From assembly GCA_965218425.1 (NCBI GenBank), contig OZ244621.1:4395498-4459497 (forward strand): 64,000 nt of DNA, read 5' to 3'. The stretch comes from an uncultured Candidatus Binatia bacterium. GTDB lineage: Bacteria; Desulfobacterota; Binatia; UBA9968; CAXXLF01. Positions 27,001-33,000 of the stretch are shown in pieces (within the stretch, counting starts at the first letter, position 1; each line of letters starts with the position of its first letter). The position numbers were made by a program.

Positions 27001-30000
27001 ATTATCGATGTGGGACGGCCCCGATTTTCCAACATAGACATCCGGCCTGCTCTCACCTTAATAGGCGTTCCCGTAGCCATCGTTGTCATGATTGTGTTGA
27101 CTTTGGCCTTACTTCTCACCCGGTATGGGTTTTGGCGTGATGGTTCTTCCAGCGAAGCTGGAAAATCAATCATGGAGAAGATTGAGGCTCACAAGACAAC
27201 CACCGGATCCTATCCGCGTTCATTGAGTGTCCTCATAGACCCAACCGATCCCATAGAGAAAAAACGAACCCTTGACCCCTGGGGAAACCCTTATATCTAT
27301 CGAACCACCCGGGGTGGTTTCGAACTTTTCAGTTCCGGTAAGGACGGCATTGCGGGCACTAAGGACGACATTCGTTACCATCCCTAGGTCCTCCTGCAGG
27401 CAGCACTATGCTTTATCCGGGTTGCTTACCGCTCATCGGTGCTGACTTGTTCCATTTGCGGGATATCAGAACCGTTGCCACCGCAATGGCCAGCATCGGC
27501 GGGACCGGCACATTCGACGGCATTGTCCTGTCGGGGCTGATGGCAGCCTTTCTGGCATGACGGCTAATCCAATGAATCGTTTCGGCAACAGAGAGAGGAA
27601 ACCTCATGAGCCTATTTGAGATCGCGGCCATTCTTTTAACCCTCGCCGCCTTGTTCAGCTATTTCAACGAGCGTTATGTGGGAATGCCCACCACCATTGG
27701 GCTCATGTTTATCTCCCTTGTGATCTCCTTGGCCCTGATTGGCATAGCGAGTATGGGCCTGGATGTGGAAAGCAGGGCCGAGTCGGTTCTCGCTGAGATC
27801 GATTTCAGCGACCTCCTTTTGCACGGCATGCTGGGCTTTCTTCTCTTTGCCGGCGCCCTGCACGTCAACCTAGGGGACCTGCTACAACAGAAATGGGTCA
27901 TCAGCTCCCTGGCCACCGCCGGTGTCCTGACCTCCACCCTCATCGTGGCCTTTTTAACCTGGATTCTGTCGCGTGTTCTGGGACTGGAGCTCCCCTTTAT
28001 CTACTGTTTGCTGTTTGGAGCTCTCATCTCTCCAACAGATCCCATTGCAGTGCTGGGAATTCTCAAAAGCGCCAACGCCCCCAAGAGCCTGGAAACCAAG
28101 ATTACCGGTGAGTCGCTGTTCAATGATGGGGTTGGTGTCGTGGTGTTCATCGTCCTTTTGGACATTGTCCGTGGTGGCCATGAACTGGATGCGTGGGAGG
28201 TGGTTGTTTTCTTCCTGCAGGAGGCCGTGGGTGGTGCGGTGTTCGGCCTGGCCACGGGGTTTTTGGTTTACTGGATGCTAAAGAGCCTGGACAACTACCC
28301 GGTGGAGATCCTTCTAACCATGGCTCTGGTCACCGGCACCTATGCCCTGGCAGAATCGCTGCATCTTTCCGCGCCCATCGCCGTGGTAGTGGCGGGGCTT
28401 TTGATCGGGAACAAAGGACGTTCCCTGGCCATGTCGGAGAAGACTTGCGAGCACCTGGACTCTTTCTGGGAGCTGGTGGATGAGATTTTGAACGCCGTGC
28501 TGTTCGTCCTCATCGGCCTTGAGATCCTGGTACTTCAATTCAACGTGAGTTATCTACTGGCAGGTCTGGCGGCCATACCCATTGTACTGGCGGCACGATG
28601 GGTGAGTGTAGGTATTCCCATCAGCCTTCTCAGGCTACGCCGGGAGTTCTCTCCCAATGTGGTAAAGATCATGACCTGGGGCGGGTTGCGAGGCGGGATC
28701 TCGGTGGCCCTTGCTCTTTCCCTACCTACAGGTCCCGAGCGCGCTGTGATCCTGGCCATCACCTATACCGTGGTGGTCTTCTCTATTCTGGTGCAGGGTC
28801 TGACCATCAGCCGACTCTTTCCTACCACCGCTGAGGACTCCGAAACAGACGTGGAAACTCACTAGTCTCCAATTTCAGGATGCCGAGGGCAAAAAAATAG
28901 GGGGACGGTATTCACCCCGCCCCCCTTTGTTGACTGCCCTGGCAGCGAATAGGGCTGTCTACACTTTTATTTCACAGTTACGGCACTTGCTGTCTTGCGA
29001 TCGTCGTCCTCGTCATAGGTTGCAGAGACGCTTTGACCTTCCTTGATCTCGAAACGATCACCCACACCGTTGAGCTCCGTGCTGCCGCCGCTGATCCGAA
29101 CCCGAACCGACTTACCATCATTCGACTTGATGGTGATATAGCGGCCCTCTCTCTCGATTGCGGCAACCTTTCCTTCCATGTCGGCTGCGAGCACGGAACC
29201 AGCCAATGACAGGCTGAACAGTACCACGGCGATTAAACTAAGTGGCTTCCTGACCATTGTTTTTCGCGCCCTTTCCCGCTTAAATCAGTATCGGAGCGAA
29301 TACTATGGGATCGAAAATATGTCAAGCGCACACCACCTATGCGAAGGTTCATGGGCAACTCCGAATCTCATGTAATTTCAATTATTTGACTCTAAACGTT
29401 TGATTTAACTTATATTTTATCTTTCTATTCTGGAAACATTTACTTGGAAAATTTGTTGCCTGGTGGAAGGAAACCCCTGATTTCCACAGTGGATTATGAT
29501 CACTGAACGTGCCGATGTTGTTGGCAGTCTGCTTCGGCCGTCCGGGCTGCTGAAGGCTCAGAAGCAGGTGGCCACCGGGACCATTGACCGGTCCAGTTTT
29601 AAGGCCATCGAGGATCGGGCAGTGGACGAGGTGGTATTGCTGCAGGAAGAAGCGGGACTTGGCATCGTCACCGACGGTGAAATGCGCAGGCAGTCCTTCC
29701 AAAGCCAGATGACGGAAGCGGTTGATGGCTTTGGTGAATATACCATGGATGCCTTCCTCTGGGGTGAATGGCATGGCGACAAGAACGTGGGTGATTGGAG
29801 CCTGGAGCGTCCCAGCACTTTAGGGGTAGTGAAAAAGCTTAGTCGAAAACGATACCTTTCCGTGGATGAGTACACCTACCTGCGATCGCGCACCACGCGG
29901 ATACCCAAGATCACCCTGCCAAGCCCCAGCCTGTTTGCTAACTTCTGGTCTCCAGAGCGTTCCAAACGAGCCTATCCTACACTGGATCATCTCCTGGCTG

Positions 30001-33000
30001 ACATTGTCGATATTCTTCGGGGCGAGGTTACGGAGCTGACTCGGTTAGGAGCTACGTATATTCAGCTAGATGCACCCCATTACTGCTTACTGTTAGATCC
30101 GAAAACGAAGTCGTTCTATGAGTCCCGGGGATGGCGTGCCGATCGATGGCTCCAGGCCGGCATCGAAATGGATAACGCCGTGTTGGGCGAGGTTTCTCAG
30201 GTCACTTTCGGGTTTCATCTCTGACGGGGTAATCAAGGCAGCCGGTGGCTGCTGGAGGGAGGCTACGACCTTCTCGCACGACAGGTCTTTAGGGAAATCC
30301 GCGCAGAGCGACTCTTGCTGGAATATGACGACCCGCGTTCCGGATCCTTTGAACCGTTAAAAGAAGTGCCAGACGGAAAAATCGCCGTTCTCGGACTGGT
30401 TTCCACCAAGGGACCAAGACTGGAGACCCAAGCGGAGTTGGTCAAAAGAATTCACGAAGCAAGCCGATTCCTGCCCCTCCAGCAACTAGCCGTCAGCCCG
30501 CAGTGCGGATTTTCCACATCTGTAATCGGCAATCGGATTTCAGCGCGGGATCAGAAGCAAAAGCTTCGTGCAGTGGTTGAAGCCGCTCATTCGGTATGGG
30601 GCTAATCCCGACATGGGCGCATCTCACTTGTCACACAGCACCGAAAATGTTAGATACCACTCAATTCAGAGTTGAAATTACATAAGTGTATCTCCTTCGA
30701 AAATCCTCACAGAGGGGGAAGGTGTCATGGCAAACCAACAATTTATTGACTCGCTCTTAAAGGATATCATCCAACCAGGCTTGAAGCGTCTCATGGAGAC
30801 CCGTTTCTTCACGGAATTAAGGGAGGGAAAGCTCTCCAACAAGAGACTCCAGGGGTTCGCATTGCAACACTACCTCCACAACATCTCCATCAACAAGGGT
30901 TTTGCCCTGTGCATGGTAAAGAACGCTCACATCCCGGAGCTATACGCTCATTTCGAGCACCAGTTTAACGAGGAAGGCCCTCACCCCGATCTGGCAAAAA
31001 AATTTGGCATTGCCGTTGGACTCAAAGAAGAGGACTTCAAGGCTATTACCCCGGTCTTTGAGTGTTTGGCTCACACCAGCGCCGTTCTTCGGGGCATGCT
31101 GTTGGGGTCCCCCGGGGAGAACCGTGCGGGGGCCCTGGTAAATGAAACCATGGTTTGCCGTTACTCGGAAGAATTTGATACCTACCTGCACAAGAACTAC
31201 CAGCTCTCGGACGATGCCTGTGAGTTTTTCTCGGTCCATGCAGTGGCGGACAAGGAACACACTCAGTTGGCGGCGGAGGTGATCATGCGTTTCGCCCAAA
31301 CTCCACAGGAGCAGGAGGCTGCACGGGTGAACGCCCTTAACATGGCTCGGTTCAAGGTTGCAAAATTCGACGGTATCTACGAAAGCTACAATTAATTTAA
31401 TTCGTTCCCGATCCTCTGCCGATCAAATCCTGCTTTATTTTCTTTGGAACCACAGAACATGCGCCACCGTGACGTTGGAGTCGTTAGTATTGATTCTACG
31501 CAGACGATGCCCGGCTACACCCTCATCGTGCCGCTGTCGGGCAAGTCCGCATATCTCATCGGCTTGCGAGGAGAGATCCTCCATCAGTGGAGCTTTCCCT
31601 TCACCCCGGGAAACTATGCCTACCTCCTACCCAATGGCAACCTCCTCTGGTCGGGCCGGACCCCAGAAGGCCCTCCCATCCCACAGGGAAAGGGCGGCAT
31701 CCTGCGCGAGTACAACTGGGCGGGCGAAGTCCTTTGGGAGTATCGGGATCCTGGGCAGCACCATGACTTTCGCCGGCTCACCAGCGGGAACACCATTTAT
31801 ATCGGGAGAGAGCCCGTTCCACAGGACACGGTTTCAAGGATCAGGGGAGGCCTCATTGGAACGGAACACGACGGCCAGGTTTTTGGCGACTACCTGCGGG
31901 AAGTAAACGCCAAGGGAGAGACTGTCTGGGATTGGCACGCTCACCGGGATATGGAGTTGGATCGCTACATGATTTGTCCTTTGTGCGCAAGGGACGAGTT
32001 CGCCCACGCTAACACATGCGCCCCGCTTCCCGATGGCAACATCATGATCAGCTTCCGCCGCCTCAACATGATCGCCGTCATCGATCGAGAGACGCGCCGA
32101 TTTTGTTGGGAGCGCCGGGACGACACCTGGGGGCATCAGCATGACTGCCACCTTCTGGCGAACGGGAACATCCTTTTATTCGCCAACGGATTCCATGGCA
32201 CGGGCACGTCATTTTCCAGGGTCCTCGAACTAAACAAGGACACAGGGGAAACCGTCTGGGAGTACCAGGGTTGGCCACCATACACTTTCTACAGTCCAAA
32301 CATCAGCGGAGCCCAGCGACTACCCAACGGAAATACCCTCATTTGCGAGGGACGGACTGGCCGGGTCTTCGAAGTGACCCACGGCAAGGAAATCGTTTGG
32401 GAATATGTCTGCCCTTATTTCGCAGCCTACGGTCCGGAGGGTCCATCCAACGCCTTGTTTCGCTGTTATCGTTACGCGGGTGACTCACTCGAGATTGCTG
32501 GAAGGGTCTCGACTTCGCTGATCCGGTAAGATCATCACACCCGTTTTTGAGCAGGAGGAACAGCCACCATGGAGATCCATTTCATCGGCACCGGGTCGCC
32601 TTATCCGGACCCAAAGCGGGGGAGTTCGGCCATCCTTGTGGATATAGGATCGGCGAGGATTCTGCTGGACTGCGGCCGTGGCTGTTTGCAGCGCATGGCA
32701 GAGATGGGAATAGCTCCACACACCATCACCCACTGTATTTTAACCCATGGCCATTACGATCATGTGGCCGACTATGCCCTGCTTGTCCTGACCTCTTGGC
32801 GTTTCGGAAGACACCATACGTTACAGGTCTATGGACCGCCGGGCACCCGGGCCATGTCCGATGCCCTGTTCAATGAAGCCTATAAGATAGACATTGCAGC
32901 CCGTAAGAGCCTTCACAGCGCCGAAGCCGCGGCGGACATTAACATCCAGGTGCAGGAGATCAGTCATGGCCATCAGATCGAGGCCGATGGGTGGCGCGTT

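What a model noticed while it worked through the whole genome (the two positions that open the first line are those of the whole stretch)
29496..30602. Selenocysteine replaces a zinc-ligand cysteine in a MetE-like (Meth_synt_2) methyltransferase
The gene called as g04325 (242 aa, Meth_synt_2) does not end at its TGA. It reads on through UGA243 to a 368-aa MetE-like/YxjH-type protein. In it selenocysteine takes the place of the first cysteine of the family's zinc-binding H-x-C motif (FGFHL-U-RGNQG). The second ligand motif (SPQCGFS) follows. It defines a selenoprotein family that is not on the current lists.
Evidence so far: Read-through gives one open 368-aa frame. 5 of 5 in-genome paralogs that align across the site have Cys there. 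A stem-loop GGCAGCC-GGU-GGCUGCU starts 12 nt after the UGA. In 60 other UBA9968 genomes, all 14 matches with >=60% identity carry exactly one in-frame TGA. The >130 more distant paralog matches (<=46%) carry none, except one N-terminally broken copy in this genome. In the 5 orthologues fetched, the TGA sits at the same H[LV]URGNQG position. tRNA-Sec, SelA, SelB and SelD are present. NCBIfam has only Cys-type MetE models for it, all below their cut-offs. The family is not among the 119 families of Table 1 in PMC13188914 (read, calls 40-41).
(Added by a program. Inside this text positions count along the whole contig: contig position 4,395,498 is position 1 of the stretch shown here. "Call 12" and the like, gene names such as g00115 and contig names such as C1 are that model's own, and its searches are not shown. 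The text may have been shortened before it was handed on; [...] marks where a part breaks off. The agent that wrote the report below was given it as the finding of a first reader that could run no searches.)

Follow-up and report, generated by a model that had tools for sequence, protein, structure and literature searches.

The report
Selenocysteine in MetE-like zinc enzyme
A gene that looks cut short by a stop codon almost certainly encodes a full-length methionine-synthase-like enzyme with selenocysteine at a zinc-binding position, a widespread selenoprotein type that published lists do not contain.

Summary
In the window's order, 58 of 59 matches of at least 58% identity carry exactly one TGA. 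In 49 of 50 fetched loci it lies at H-x-U-R-G-N; the other has TGC. The same TGA form is not confined to this order. All 80 fetched are in-frame homologues, titled Binatia, Chloroflexota, Poribacteria, Methylomirabilota, Latescibacterota, Acidobacteriota and others. Cys-form orthologues (65-71% identity) are common. The frame after the TGA is under purifying selection (dN/dS about 0.09). A 17-nt hairpin 12 nt after the UGA is conserved. Its codons show the strongest synonymous-site constraint in the gene, and its loop is G-G/U-U in 98 of 98 Sec forms against G-C-U in 57 of 79 Cys forms. SelA, SelB, Sec-type SelD and tRNA-Sec are present. The substrate is unknown. In Methylomirabilota and Poribacteria the gene lies inside egtD/senA(BC) selenoneine clusters, but not in this window. 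I found no MetE-type family in the 2026 table of 119 selenoprotein families. This scan has reported the same family before on other DNA (at least six earlier notes).

The parts
29496..30605 (+). Full-length gene of the Sec-containing MetE-like (Meth_synt_2) protein: 369 codons plus the TAA stop
   Evidence: One open frame when TGA is read as U. Pfam PF01717 covers residues 9-364. 65-71% identical to 369-aa Cys-form proteins. dN/dS is 0.09 downstream and 0.13 upstream of the TGA against the same-genus orthologue.
30222..30224 (+). In-frame TGA, codon 243, read as selenocysteine; aligns with the Cys of the H-x-C zinc motif
   Evidence: 49 of 50 fetched order loci have TGA at this codon and 1 has TGC. 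80 of 80 pattern hits from other genomes are in frame. It aligns with the Cys of 'HFC' in C. albicans Met6 and of 'HIC' in 1YPX.
30237..30253 (+). SECIS-like hairpin: stem 30237-30243 with 30247-30253, loop GGU at 30244-30246, starting 12 nt after the UGA
   Evidence: Present in the MFE and centroid folds. 94.5% of cells are paired in 48 order sequences, reached by 0 of 500 shuffles, with pair 27-39 as CG 32, GC 3, AU 2, GU 2. The loop is GGT or GTT in 98 of 98 Sec forms. Hairpin codons rank 1, 3 and 4 of 71 for synonymous constraint.
30216..30218 (+). His241 codon, putative zinc ligand (H of H-x-U)
   Evidence: Invariant in the paralog alignment and in the Cys-orthologue alignment. Aligns with the His of the MetE H-x-C motif.
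30321..30323 (+). Glu276 codon, putative third zinc ligand (LLLEYDD)
   Evidence: Invariant in alignments A2 and A4. Its role as a ligand is by analogy with MetE (recalled; the four residues Cys, His, Cys, Glu are named in PMC12478193).
30504..30506 (+). Cys337 codon, second thiolate zinc ligand (SPQCGFS)
   Evidence: Invariant in A2 and A4. Aligns with 'NPDCGL' of C. albicans Met6.

Best explanation
The gene encodes an intact 369-residue, single-domain MetE-like TIM-barrel enzyme. Codon 243 is UGA and is decoded as selenocysteine. Decoding would use SelB with Sec-tRNA(Sec), recruited by a 17-nt hairpin that starts 12 nt downstream inside the coding sequence. Sec243 occupies the position of the first cysteine of the family's His-x-Cys...Glu...Cys zinc site. 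The metal would therefore be held by His241, Sec243 and Cys337, with Glu276 as the exchangeable fourth ligand.

By analogy with MetE, the zinc binds and activates a substrate thiolate or selenolate for alkyl (most likely methyl) transfer. The Gly-Ser, Asp-Gly-Glu and Asp-x-Pro elements, which in my recollection hold homocysteine in MetE, are conserved. The acceptor is therefore probably homocysteine or a similar sulfur or selenium amino acid. The methyl donor is unknown, because the folate-binding N-terminal barrel is absent. The selenolate ligand would make the zinc site more electron-rich and more easily repaired after oxidation.

Shown: conservation of the TGA, Cys in homologues, constraint on the hairpin, presence of the Sec machinery, selection on the downstream frame, fold and motif homology.
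Inferred: selenium insertion, Zn-Se bonding, the substrate, and the advantage of Sec.

My odds: real Sec codon about 0.93; Sec as a zinc ligand about 0.75; homocysteine-type methyl transfer about 0.4.
For: TGA conservation. 58 of 59 matches of at least 58% identity in 123 order genomes have exactly one TGA. It lies at H-x-U-R-G-N in 49 of 50 fetched loci, and the other has TGC. All 80 fetched are in-frame homologues of 58-88% identity from genomes titled as many phyla. In a 301-genome sample of the phylum of G523, 17 genomes carry an orthologue: 8 with TGA and 9 with TGC or TGT.

Cys at the same column. This holds in 14 of 14 aligned Cys-form proteins picked from 120 listed and in 5 of 5 paralogs.

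Downstream frame. dN 0.044 and dS 0.482 after the TGA, against 0.085 and 0.664 before it.

Hairpin. Pairing is 94.5%, reached by 0 of 500 shuffles, with compensatory changes at one pair. In 84 unique full-length Sec genes, the third bases of hairpin codons G248, R250 and L252 rank 1st, 3rd and 4th lowest in entropy of 71 conserved four-fold columns (0.49, 0.85 and 0.97 bits; median 1.6). Arg250 is CGG 74, CGT 24, CGC 0, CGA 0 in 98 Sec forms. In 79 Cys forms it is CGC 57, CGT 8, CGG 8, CGA 6. The control Arg244 is CGC in 63 of 98 Sec forms.

Sec machinery in the own genome. selA 592 bits, selD 378 bits and itself with a TGA, selB 413 bits, and tRNA-Sec 76.5 bits with anticodon tca. SelB is over its cut-off in 5 of 5 tested TGA-form genomes from other phyla. 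TGA closes 7 of 33 long frames in the window, so it is still a stop codon here.

Enzyme family. PF01717 at 56.2 bits. 1YPX at E 1.7e-45, with motif-to-motif alignment to Met6. The model has pLDDT 83 and pTM 0.87. Foldseek finds MetE catalytic domains at TM 0.73-0.75 and 1YPX at TMt 0.86. H241, C/U243, E276 and C337 are invariant. The zinc-site Cys of MetE is a known oxidation target, and YxjG is also S-bacillithiolated (PMC4360819, passages read).
Against: There is no proteomic, 75Se or RNA evidence. The single sequence does not fold better than shuffles: z -0.07 for 85 nt and z -1.17 for 41 nt, with 26 of 200 shuffles as good. No Rfam family matches at gathering score.

The peptide G-S-R-W-L itself forces much of the hairpin sequence. 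In the cross-phylum set the covariation is no better than shuffles (73 and 81 of 500). A slide of -3 columns still pairs 82% in the order set. The phylogenetically controlled test of the loop base has only 5 independent Sec/Cys pairs and is not significant: 1.7 go the same way, 0 the other way, 3.3 show no difference, median p 0.5.

Two TGA-form genomes gave no SelA (E-value limit 1e-20) and no SelB above the family cut-off: G114 at 100% estimated completeness and G115 at 96%. This may be a binning gap.

The function is unsupported by context in this window. The neighbours are conserved only within the window's own family. SenB is nearly universal in the order, including the family that lacks this gene. 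NCBIfam scores are below every curated cut-off.
Confidence: 0.85

Rival explanations
1. Sec243 is the reactive nucleophile itself. It would be a methyl- or alkyl-accepting relay residue, or a redox residue, and not merely a spectator zinc ligand. The enzyme would work by a ping-pong route through a Se-alkyl intermediate, in the manner of the zinc-bound cysteine that accepts the methyl group in Ada.
For: Sec normally sits at catalytic positions. The review's table lists a Sec form of methylated-DNA-protein-cysteine methyltransferase and several Sec methyltransferases. The single-domain protein lacks the folate-binding barrel, so its donor chemistry must differ from MetE. The Ada precedent is recalled, not taken from a call.
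Against: The four zinc-ligand positions are invariant in Sec forms, Cys forms and paralogs alike. The elements that align with the MetE motifs are conserved; their role in holding homocysteine is recalled. Both facts fit an unchanged MetE-type mechanism. Cys forms of 65-71% identity are abundant, so the residue need not be Sec.
Confidence: 0.12
2. The hairpin at 30237-30253 is only a by-product of the conserved peptide G-S-R-W-L. The true Sec insertion signal is elsewhere or differs from the classical form.
For: The peptide is invariant in both Sec and Cys forms. Several Cys forms (L039, L187, L194) keep the same hairpin. Folding is not better than shuffles. Covariation is weak outside the order. 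The independent-pairs test is not significant.
Against: Synonymous sites of the hairpin codons are the most constrained in the whole gene: ranks 1, 3 and 4 of 71. The loop base is never C or A in 98 Sec forms, although CGC is the preferred Arg codon elsewhere in the same genes and at this codon in Cys forms. Compensatory CG, GC, AU and GU pairs occur at columns 27-39. The distance from the UGA never varies: alignments A1 and A3 have no gaps.
Confidence: 0.08
3. The UGA is read through as an ordinary amino acid (Cys or Trp by near-cognate tRNA, or a local code change), not as selenocysteine.
For: No direct evidence of selenium in the product. G114 and G115 carry the TGA form but gave no SelA and no SelB above the cut-off.
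Against: The TGA aligns only with Cys. TGA is used as a stop in this genome, closing 7 of 33 long frames. A complete Sec apparatus is present. SelB was found in 105 of 123 order genomes and in 5 of 5 tested genomes from other phyla. The TGA form spans many phyla with standard codes.
Confidence: 0.03
4. The gene is a pseudogene or a truncated 242-aa product. The TGA is a nonsense mutation or an assembly error.
For: Gene callers stop at the TGA: table-11 ORF listing gives a 242-aa frame.
Against: The same TGA is present in 58 of 59 order matches and in 80 of 80 pattern loci. dN/dS downstream is 0.09. The second zinc motif and the C-terminus are intact. Contigs from 4 runs in 3 studies are identical over the site.
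Confidence: 0.01

Closest known systems
Short 'cobalamin-independent methionine synthase II' proteins (PDB 1YPX from Listeria; NCBIfam PRK06520/NF005085 and PRK06233/NF004875; B. subtilis YxjG/YxjH type)
   Same: Single Meth_synt_2 barrel of about 370 aa. The H-x-C-R-G-N and S-P-Q-C-G-F motifs are shared. 1YPX matches at E 1.7e-45 over residues 6-369 and at TMt 0.86. Cys-form orthologues of 65-71% identity carry this name in NCBI records.
   Different: Sec replaces the first zinc cysteine. Scores are below both curated cut-offs: 234.7 against 313, and 210.7 against 576. No member of this group had a demonstrated reaction in the papers I read.
MetE, cobalamin-independent methionine synthase (C. 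albicans Met6, 4L5Z/3PPF; T. maritima, 1XDJ/1T7L)
   Same: The catalytic barrel fold matches at TM 0.73-0.75. The zinc motifs align residue for residue. The Gly-Ser, Asp-Gly-Glu and Asp-x-Pro elements are conserved; their role in holding homocysteine is recalled.
   Different: There is no N-terminal folate-binding barrel: TIGR01371 scores 43.2 bits against a cut-off of 929.95. Sec stands at the ligand position. The methyl donor is unknown.
Core-MetE / MesA-D folate-independent methionine synthases (PMC7005905 search listing only; PMC7857596 passages)
   Same: Single-domain MetE relatives that use donors other than methylfolate. The four residues Cys, His, Cys, Glu are kept (PMC12478193 passage).
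   Different: The short methionine synthase equivalog models score far below their cut-offs: NF003317 at 105.7 against 406, NF006589 at 53.1 against 392, and NF002119 at 31.5 against 258. Neither 'selenocysteine' nor 'YxjG/YxjH' occurs in PMC7857596.
Bacterial selenoprotein genes with an in-ORF SECIS (E. coli fdhF paradigm)
   Same: A UGA is followed at a fixed short distance by a small hairpin with G and U in the apical loop, and SelB, SelA, SelD and tRNA-Sec are present. The 17-nt size, the roughly 11-nt spacing and the G/U loop bases of the fdhF minimal element are recalled from memory, not taken from a call.
   Different: The loop here has three bases and the hairpin lies within an invariant peptide. 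No Rfam model matches.
Selenoproteins in which Sec ligates a metal: formate dehydrogenase (Mo/W-Se) and [NiFeSe] hydrogenase (Ni-Se)
   Same: Sec replaces a Cys metal ligand and Cys forms co-exist (review text).
   Different: Here the metal would be the redox-inert zinc of a Lewis-acid alkyl-transfer site. Full-text searches for 'zinc-bound selenocysteine', 'selenocysteine zinc', 'Sec-Zn' and 'Zn-Sec' found no paper. Hits for 'selenocysteine ligand' concerned formate dehydrogenase, hydrogenase and CO2-reduction catalysis reviews.

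Membership tests
Bacterial selenoprotein gene (UGA recoded to Sec) | In-frame UGA conserved among orthologues | tested here: met
   58 of 59 order matches. 49 of 50 fetched loci have it at the same codon. 80 of 80 pattern loci from other genomes are in frame.
Bacterial selenoprotein gene (UGA recoded to Sec) | Cys in homologues at the aligned position | tested here: met
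   14 of 14 Cys orthologues, 5 of 5 paralogs, G058 with TGC, and 9 Chloroflexota-sample orthologues with TGC or TGT.
Bacterial selenoprotein gene (UGA recoded to Sec) | SECIS hairpin shortly downstream of the UGA, under selection | tested here: met
   Hairpin 12 nt after the UGA with 94.5% pairing, reached by 0 of 500 shuffles. Entropy ranks 1, 3 and 4 of 71. Loop G-G/U-U in 98 of 98 Sec forms. Against: folding z-scores are not significant, the independent-pairs test is underpowered, and there is no Rfam hit.
Bacterial selenoprotein gene (UGA recoded to Sec) | SelA, SelB, SelD and tRNA-Sec in the genome | tested here: met
   All four lie at C1:1300977-1311984.
Bacterial selenoprotein gene (UGA recoded to Sec) | Coding constraint continues after the UGA | tested here: met
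   dN/dS is 0.044/0.482 downstream and 0.085/0.664 upstream.
Bacterial selenoprotein gene (UGA recoded to Sec) | Selenium shown in the protein (75Se or mass spectrometry) | not testable with these tools
   No proteomic data are available here, and no RNA holder was listed.
MetE superfamily catalytic domain (Pfam Meth_synt_2, PF01717) | Profile match above the gathering score over the whole domain | tested here: met
   56.2 bits against a cut-off of 21, covering residues 9-364 of 369.
MetE superfamily catalytic domain (Pfam Meth_synt_2, PF01717) | Zinc ligands His-x-Cys ... Glu ... Cys | tested here: met
   H241, U243 (in place of Cys), E276 and C337 are invariant columns and align with the Met6 motifs. 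Zinc binding itself is not testable here.
MetE superfamily catalytic domain (Pfam Meth_synt_2, PF01717) | TIM-barrel fold like the MetE C-terminal domain | tested here: met
   Model pLDDT 83. Foldseek gives 4L5Z at E 2.3e-19 and TMq 0.73, 1XPG at 0.75, and 1YPX at TMt 0.86.
Canonical MetE (TIGR01371, two-barrel folate-dependent methionine synthase) | N-terminal folate-binding barrel and an equivalog-level score | tested here: not met
   369 aa with only PF01717. TIGR01371 scores 43.2 bits against a cut-off of 929.95.
NCBIfam PRK06520 / PRK06233 short methionine synthase II families | Score at or above the curated cut-off | tested here: not met
   234.7 against 313 and 210.7 against 576. This is a related but separate subfamily.
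Selenoneine (sen) / ergothioneine gene cluster member | Adjacency to senA, senB, senC or egtD | tested here: not met
   The window's neighbours are a Na/H exchanger, a CADD/haem-oxygenase-like protein, an arylsulfotransferase-like protein and a metallo-beta-lactamase-fold protein. SenA, SenB, EgtD and SelD lie elsewhere in the genome. Adjacency is met in other lineages: 16 of 127 loci, with SenA, SenB and SelD over their cut-offs in L325-L327. SenB presence does not track the gene within the order.

The most novel reading that the evidence does not exclude
This would be the first natural enzyme family with a zinc-selenolate catalytic centre. It is a widespread Sec variant of the MetE-type thiol-alkylating zinc site, present in genomes titled as about ten phyla and moved between them by gene transfer. 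Its real substrates may be selenium metabolites and not homocysteine. Candidates are Se-methylation or demethylation of selenoneine, of its precursors, or of selenohomocysteine. The hint is the gene's position between egtD and senA(-senC-senB) in Methylomirabilota and Poribacteria.
Probability: 0.3. Interest if true: 0.88.

Novelty: new variant of a known kind. Interest (0 to 1): 0.78.

Why it matters
Selenocysteine is known as a redox nucleophile and as a ligand of molybdenum, tungsten and nickel. A selenolate on the zinc of an alkyl-transfer enzyme would be a new use of the 21st amino acid. It would also be a natural test of how the ligand set tunes zinc-thiolate reactivity.

The family is common in soil, groundwater and sponge-associated bacteria, to judge by the record titles. 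Gene callers cut it into a 242-aa fragment, so selenoproteomes and methionine or selenium pathways in these groups are under-annotated. The link to selenoneine clusters in two phyla gives a concrete place to look for its substrate.

Tried and rejected
- Rfam scan of the whole window at gathering score found only one tRNA and no SECIS family.
- Single-sequence folding statistics were not significant.
- The independent-pairs test of loop base against Sec/Cys state had only 5 supported pairs and a median p of 0.5. The same test for full core pairing, and for a control codon, also showed nothing.
- Covariation in the cross-phylum alignment A3 was reached by 73 and 81 of 500 shuffles. The bulged register pairs 97.0% of cells and the unbulged 86.3%.
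- The window's neighbours are conserved only in the two closest genomes, G001 and G002, so they give no general clue to function.
- Phylogenetic profile with SenB: SenB is over its cut-off in 105 of 123 order genomes and matches at E 1e-70 or better in 26 of 28 genomes of family f2, which lacks the gene. It does not discriminate.
- Idea that the one Cys-form genome (G058) had lost the Sec machinery: SelA and SelB were not found there, but they were also not found in the TGA-form genomes G114 and G115. The result is inconclusive.
- Expression: no RNA holder was listed.
- The BSepDB supplement as held is cut inside Table S1, so its family table S2 was not seen. The term search of the held part found nothing.
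- PMC12013261 (Haft and Tolstoy 2025) is not held.
- Papers on folate-independent methionine synthases and on glycine betaine demethylation gave no characterised member of this subfamily.
- The own genome's SenA locus has no MetE-like or egtD neighbour.
- Not run: the search of protein representatives, complex prediction, the protein-atlas search, and the 'shorter' length search for truncated gene calls.

Full report
**The observation.** The window has an ATG at 29496, a TGA at 30222-30224 and a TAA at 30603-30605. Pfam Meth_synt_2 matches residues 9-364, on both sides of the TGA (56.2 bits, cut-off 21). NCBIfam gives only Cys-type MetE-like models, all below their cut-offs. The best are NF005085 at 234.7 against 313 and NF004875 at 210.7 against 576. 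The TGA is codon 243 in F-G-F-H-L-U-R-G-N-Q-G, and S-P-Q-C-G-F-S follows at residues 334-340. The hairpin GGCAGCC-GGU-GGCUGCU lies at 30237-30253, 12 nt after the UGA. Contigs of four public runs from three studies cover the site without a single differing letter, though some may be the source of this assembly.

**Is the TGA more than chance?** The genome is one contig of 4,459,497 bases, and the window is its last 64 kb.
- I searched all 123 genomes held for the order (27 genera, three families) and found 59 matches of at least 58% identity in 58 genomes.
- 58 of these carry exactly one TGA and one (G058) carries none. The next-best matches are paralogs of 46% identity or less, and the listed ones have no TGA.
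- These counts include four unpublished genomes (G051, G054, G073, G093). Without them the figure is 54 of 55.
- I fetched 50 of the loci. 49 have the TGA at H-x-U-R-G-N, and the G058 locus has TGC at the same codon.
- By family, the gene is in 3 of 5 genomes of f1 (G000 included), in none of 28 of f2 and in 55 of 90 of f3.
- All five paralogs in the own genome that align across the site have Cys. His241, Cys/Sec243, Glu276 and Cys337 are invariant in that alignment.

**Beyond the order.**
- A protein search found thousands of relatives. The best 120 are full-length proteins of about 369 aa and 65-71% identity from many sources. Where named, they are called cobalamin-independent methionine synthase II family protein or methyltetrahydropteroyltriglutamate-homocysteine methyltransferase.
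- The 14 that I aligned (picked from the 120 for names or long contigs) all have Cys at the site.
- In a 401-genome sample of the window's phylum, only two genomes, both of the own order, have an orthologue.
- All 80 loci fetched hold an in-frame homologue of 58-88% identity. 79 have one U in the match and one (L113) has two.
- By record title, about 36 are Binatia or 'delta-proteobacterial' MAGs, 18 Chloroflexota (including Dehalococcoidia and Anaerolineales), 10 Poribacteria, 7 Methylomirabilota, 3 Acidobacteriota and 2 Latescibacterota. One each is Gemmatimonadales, Udaeobacter, Gammaproteobacteria and unnamed. A few of these titles may reflect mis-binning.
- In a 301-genome sample of the phylum of G523 (record titled Anaerolineales), 17 genomes have an orthologue: 8 with TGA and 9 with TGC or TGT.
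- The Sec form is therefore widespread and interleaved with Cys forms. This is the usual signature of a true selenoprotein family.

**Is the downstream frame translated?** Against the same-genus orthologue, dN is 0.044 and dS 0.482 after the TGA (126 codons). Before it the values are 0.085 and 0.664 (234 codons). TGA still closes 7 of 33 long frames in the window, so the codon has not been reassigned.

**Sec machinery.** The own genome has the following within 11 kb:
- selA (592 bits);
- a selD that itself contains a TGA (378 bits);
- selB (413 bits);
- tRNA-Sec (76.5 bits, anticodon tca).

SelB is over its cut-off in 105 of 123 order genomes and in 5 of 5 TGA-form genomes tested from other phyla. 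Against this, G114 (100% estimated completeness) and G115 (96%) carry the TGA form, yet I found neither SelA nor SelB in them. The Cys-form genome G058 also lacks both. With fragmented MAGs I cannot tell loss from a binning gap.

**The hairpin.** Evidence from folding alone is weak: z is -0.07 for 85 nt and -1.17 for 41 nt, and Rfam has no match. The comparative evidence is stronger.
- In 48 Sec sequences of the order, 94.5% of cells pair, reached by 0 of 500 shuffles. One pair (columns 27-39) shows CG 32, GC 3, AU 2, GU 2 and 8 unpaired. The 8 unpaired cases fit a register with one bulged base. A slide of -3 columns still pairs 82% because of the repeated GGC.
- In a cross-phylum set of 47 sequences the helix is conserved: 97.0% in a bulged register and 86.3% unbulged. 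It barely varies, so covariation is no better than shuffles, at 73 and 81 of 500.
- The best test uses the gene itself as control. In 84 unique full-length Sec genes there are 71 conserved four-fold codon columns. Hairpin codons Gly248, Arg250 and Leu252 rank 1st, 3rd and 4th lowest in third-base entropy: 0.49, 0.85 and 0.97 bits against a median of 1.6.
- The middle loop base is the third base of Arg250. It is G in 74 and U in 24 of 98 unique Sec forms, and never C or A. The control Arg244 is CGC in 63 of the same 98.
- To get Cys-form DNA I used 80 metagenome loci from a second pattern scan and the loci. This gave 79 unique Cys forms, in which Arg250 is CGC 57, CGT 8, CGG 8 and CGA 6.
- The five core pairs are all formed in 85 of 98 Sec forms and in 35 of 79 Cys forms.
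- A FastTree of 97 Sec rows, 71 Cys rows and 2 paralogs needs at least 11 Sec/Cys changes. Only 5 independent pairs lie on supported branches, so the phylogenetically controlled test has no power (median p 0.5). Several Cys forms next to Sec forms still keep the hairpin.
- I read the hairpin as the SECIS with good but not complete confidence. Its 17-nt size, its spacing and the G/U in its loop resemble the minimal fdhF element as I recall it; that comparison rests on memory.

**What the protein is.**
- The closest solved relative by sequence is 1YPX, a Listeria 'vitamin-B12 independent methionine synthase family protein' (E 1.7e-45).
- The alignment to Candida albicans Met6 puts H-L-C(U) on H-F-C and S-P-Q-C-G-F on N-P-D-C-G-L. 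It also aligns G-S-L-L-R-P, T-D-G-E and I-Q-L-D-A-P with the corresponding MetE segments. As I recall, these segments hold homocysteine.
- An AlphaFold model built on 15 sequences (pLDDT 83, pTM 0.87) matches MetE catalytic domains at TM 0.73-0.75 and 1YPX at TMt 0.86.
- The protein has no folate-binding N-terminal barrel and fails every curated methionine synthase cut-off. It works like a MetE-type zinc alkyltransferase but is not a canonical MetE.
- I found no characterised member of this subfamily in the papers read.
- A review reports that the zinc-binding cysteine of MetE is a main target of oxidative S-thiolation and that YxjG is also modified (PMC4360819, passages). This gives a plausible reason for a selenolate, which is more easily reduced back. 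That reason is my inference.

**Context and function.**
- In the window the gene follows a Na/H exchanger and a small exported protein. After it come a CADD/haem-oxygenase-like protein (30727-31395), an arylsulfotransferase-like propeller (31444-32529) and a metallo-beta-lactamase-fold protein (32569-33360). This order is kept only in the two closest genomes.
- Among 127 loci with 1.2-1.5 kb flanks, 36 (all Binatia-type) have a TauE/SafE permease and 16 an isochorismatase-like gene. 9 have a SenA/EgtB-like gene, 7 an EgtD-like gene and 7 (Poribacteria) a SelD-like gene.
- I fetched three of these loci in full. Two Methylomirabilota loci read egtD, Sec-MetE-like, senA. One Poribacteria locus reads egtD, OpuAC-type ABC transporter, a 156-aa ORF, Sec-MetE-like, senA, selD/senC, senB.
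- SenA (518-529 bits, cut-off 420), SenB (387, cut-off 300) and SelD (352, cut-off 125) are all over their curated cut-offs. The sen genes are as defined in the preprint 10.1101/2022.04.13.486033 (passages).
- The window's genome also has SenA, SenB, EgtD and SelD, but scattered.
- SenB is present in 105 of 123 order genomes, and a SenB match occurs in 26 of 28 genomes of the family that lacks the gene. The profile gives no support for an obligate link.
- The selenoneine association is therefore real in two phyla and is only a lead for this window.

**Evolution.** On the tree the window's protein and its two family-f1 relatives group with Latescibacterota sequences, near the Poribacteria and Methylomirabilota groups. 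They do not group with the bulk of Binatia (f3) sequences. This suggests that the Sec gene, with its internal hairpin, moves between phyla. The tree is a FastTree on about 270 columns, and I did not test this grouping.

**Known or new.**
- I read all of Table 1 of the 2026 review of the prokaryotic selenoproteome (119 families). It has no MetE, Meth_synt_2 or methionine synthase entry.
- The BSepDB and SelCysML main texts do not contain the terms.
- Searches for selenoprotein with cobalamin-independent methionine synthase, selenocysteine with PF01717, selenoproteome with MetE, and several phrases for a zinc-selenocysteine site found nothing relevant.
- BSepDB Table S2 and PMC12013261 could not be seen.
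- This scan itself has reported the same family on other DNA at least six times. I used those notes as leads: 1YPX, the multi-phylum spread and the selenoneine neighbours. I re-tested each of these here.

**Verdict.** This is a genuine, mis-called selenoprotein gene. It belongs to a widespread Sec variant of a known enzyme family, with Sec at a zinc-ligand position. Selenium insertion, the Zn-Se bond and the substrate remain to be shown.

Noticed in passing
Own genome C1:1300977-1311984 (outside the window): selA, a Sec-type selD (itself with an in-frame TGA), selB and tRNA-Sec lie within 11 kb of each other.
   Followed up: partly
Own genome C1:4060211-4061545 (L328:7212-8546), C1:2657888-2658817 (L330), C1:2962603-2963502 (L329): SenA (483 bits), SenB (403 bits) and EgtD (298 bits) are all present but scattered. 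With SelD, the organism has the gene set for selenoneine. SenB is over its cut-off in 105 of 123 genomes of the order.
   Followed up: partly
L326:4353-13350 (Poribacteria genome G830): One strand carries egtD, an ABC ATPase, an OpuAC-permease fusion, a 156-aa ORF, the Sec-MetE-like gene, senA, selD/senC and senB. This is a selenoneine cluster with a betaine-type transporter and the MetE-like selenoprotein inside it.
   Followed up: partly
L012-L037 and other Binatia-type loci, for example L019:561-1484: A TauE/SafE-family permease lies next to the Sec-MetE-like gene in 36 of 127 loci, and an isochorismatase-like hydrolase in 16. All are Binatia-type and none is in the window's own family.
   Followed up: partly
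window 30727-33360: Three same-strand genes follow the selenoprotein gene with short gaps: CADD/haem-oxygenase-like (TIGR04305, 50.6 bits, below cut-off), arylsulfotransferase-like propeller and metallo-beta-lactamase fold. The first is conserved after the gene in G001 and G002, and the second was found in G001 only. A possible operon of unknown function.
   Followed up: partly
Tree: The window's protein groups with Latescibacterota sequences and not with most Binatia copies. This suggests transfer of the Sec gene between phyla.
   Followed up: no
Genomes G114 and G115: Both carry the TGA form. SelA was not found and SelB did not reach its cut-off, although estimated completeness is 100% and 96%.
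   Followed up: partly
L113 (Poribacteria): The read-through match holds two in-frame TGA codons instead of one. I did not look at the position of the second.
   Followed up: no
L004 (own genome C1:3089474-3090394): A Cys-form paralog of 39% identity lacks its first 63 or so residues and has TGA codons just upstream. It is probably a decayed copy.
   Followed up: partly
window 23928-24428 and 45130-45201: A MsrB (SelR domain) gene and a tRNA gene (Rfam 61.9 bits). Both look ordinary.
   Followed up: no
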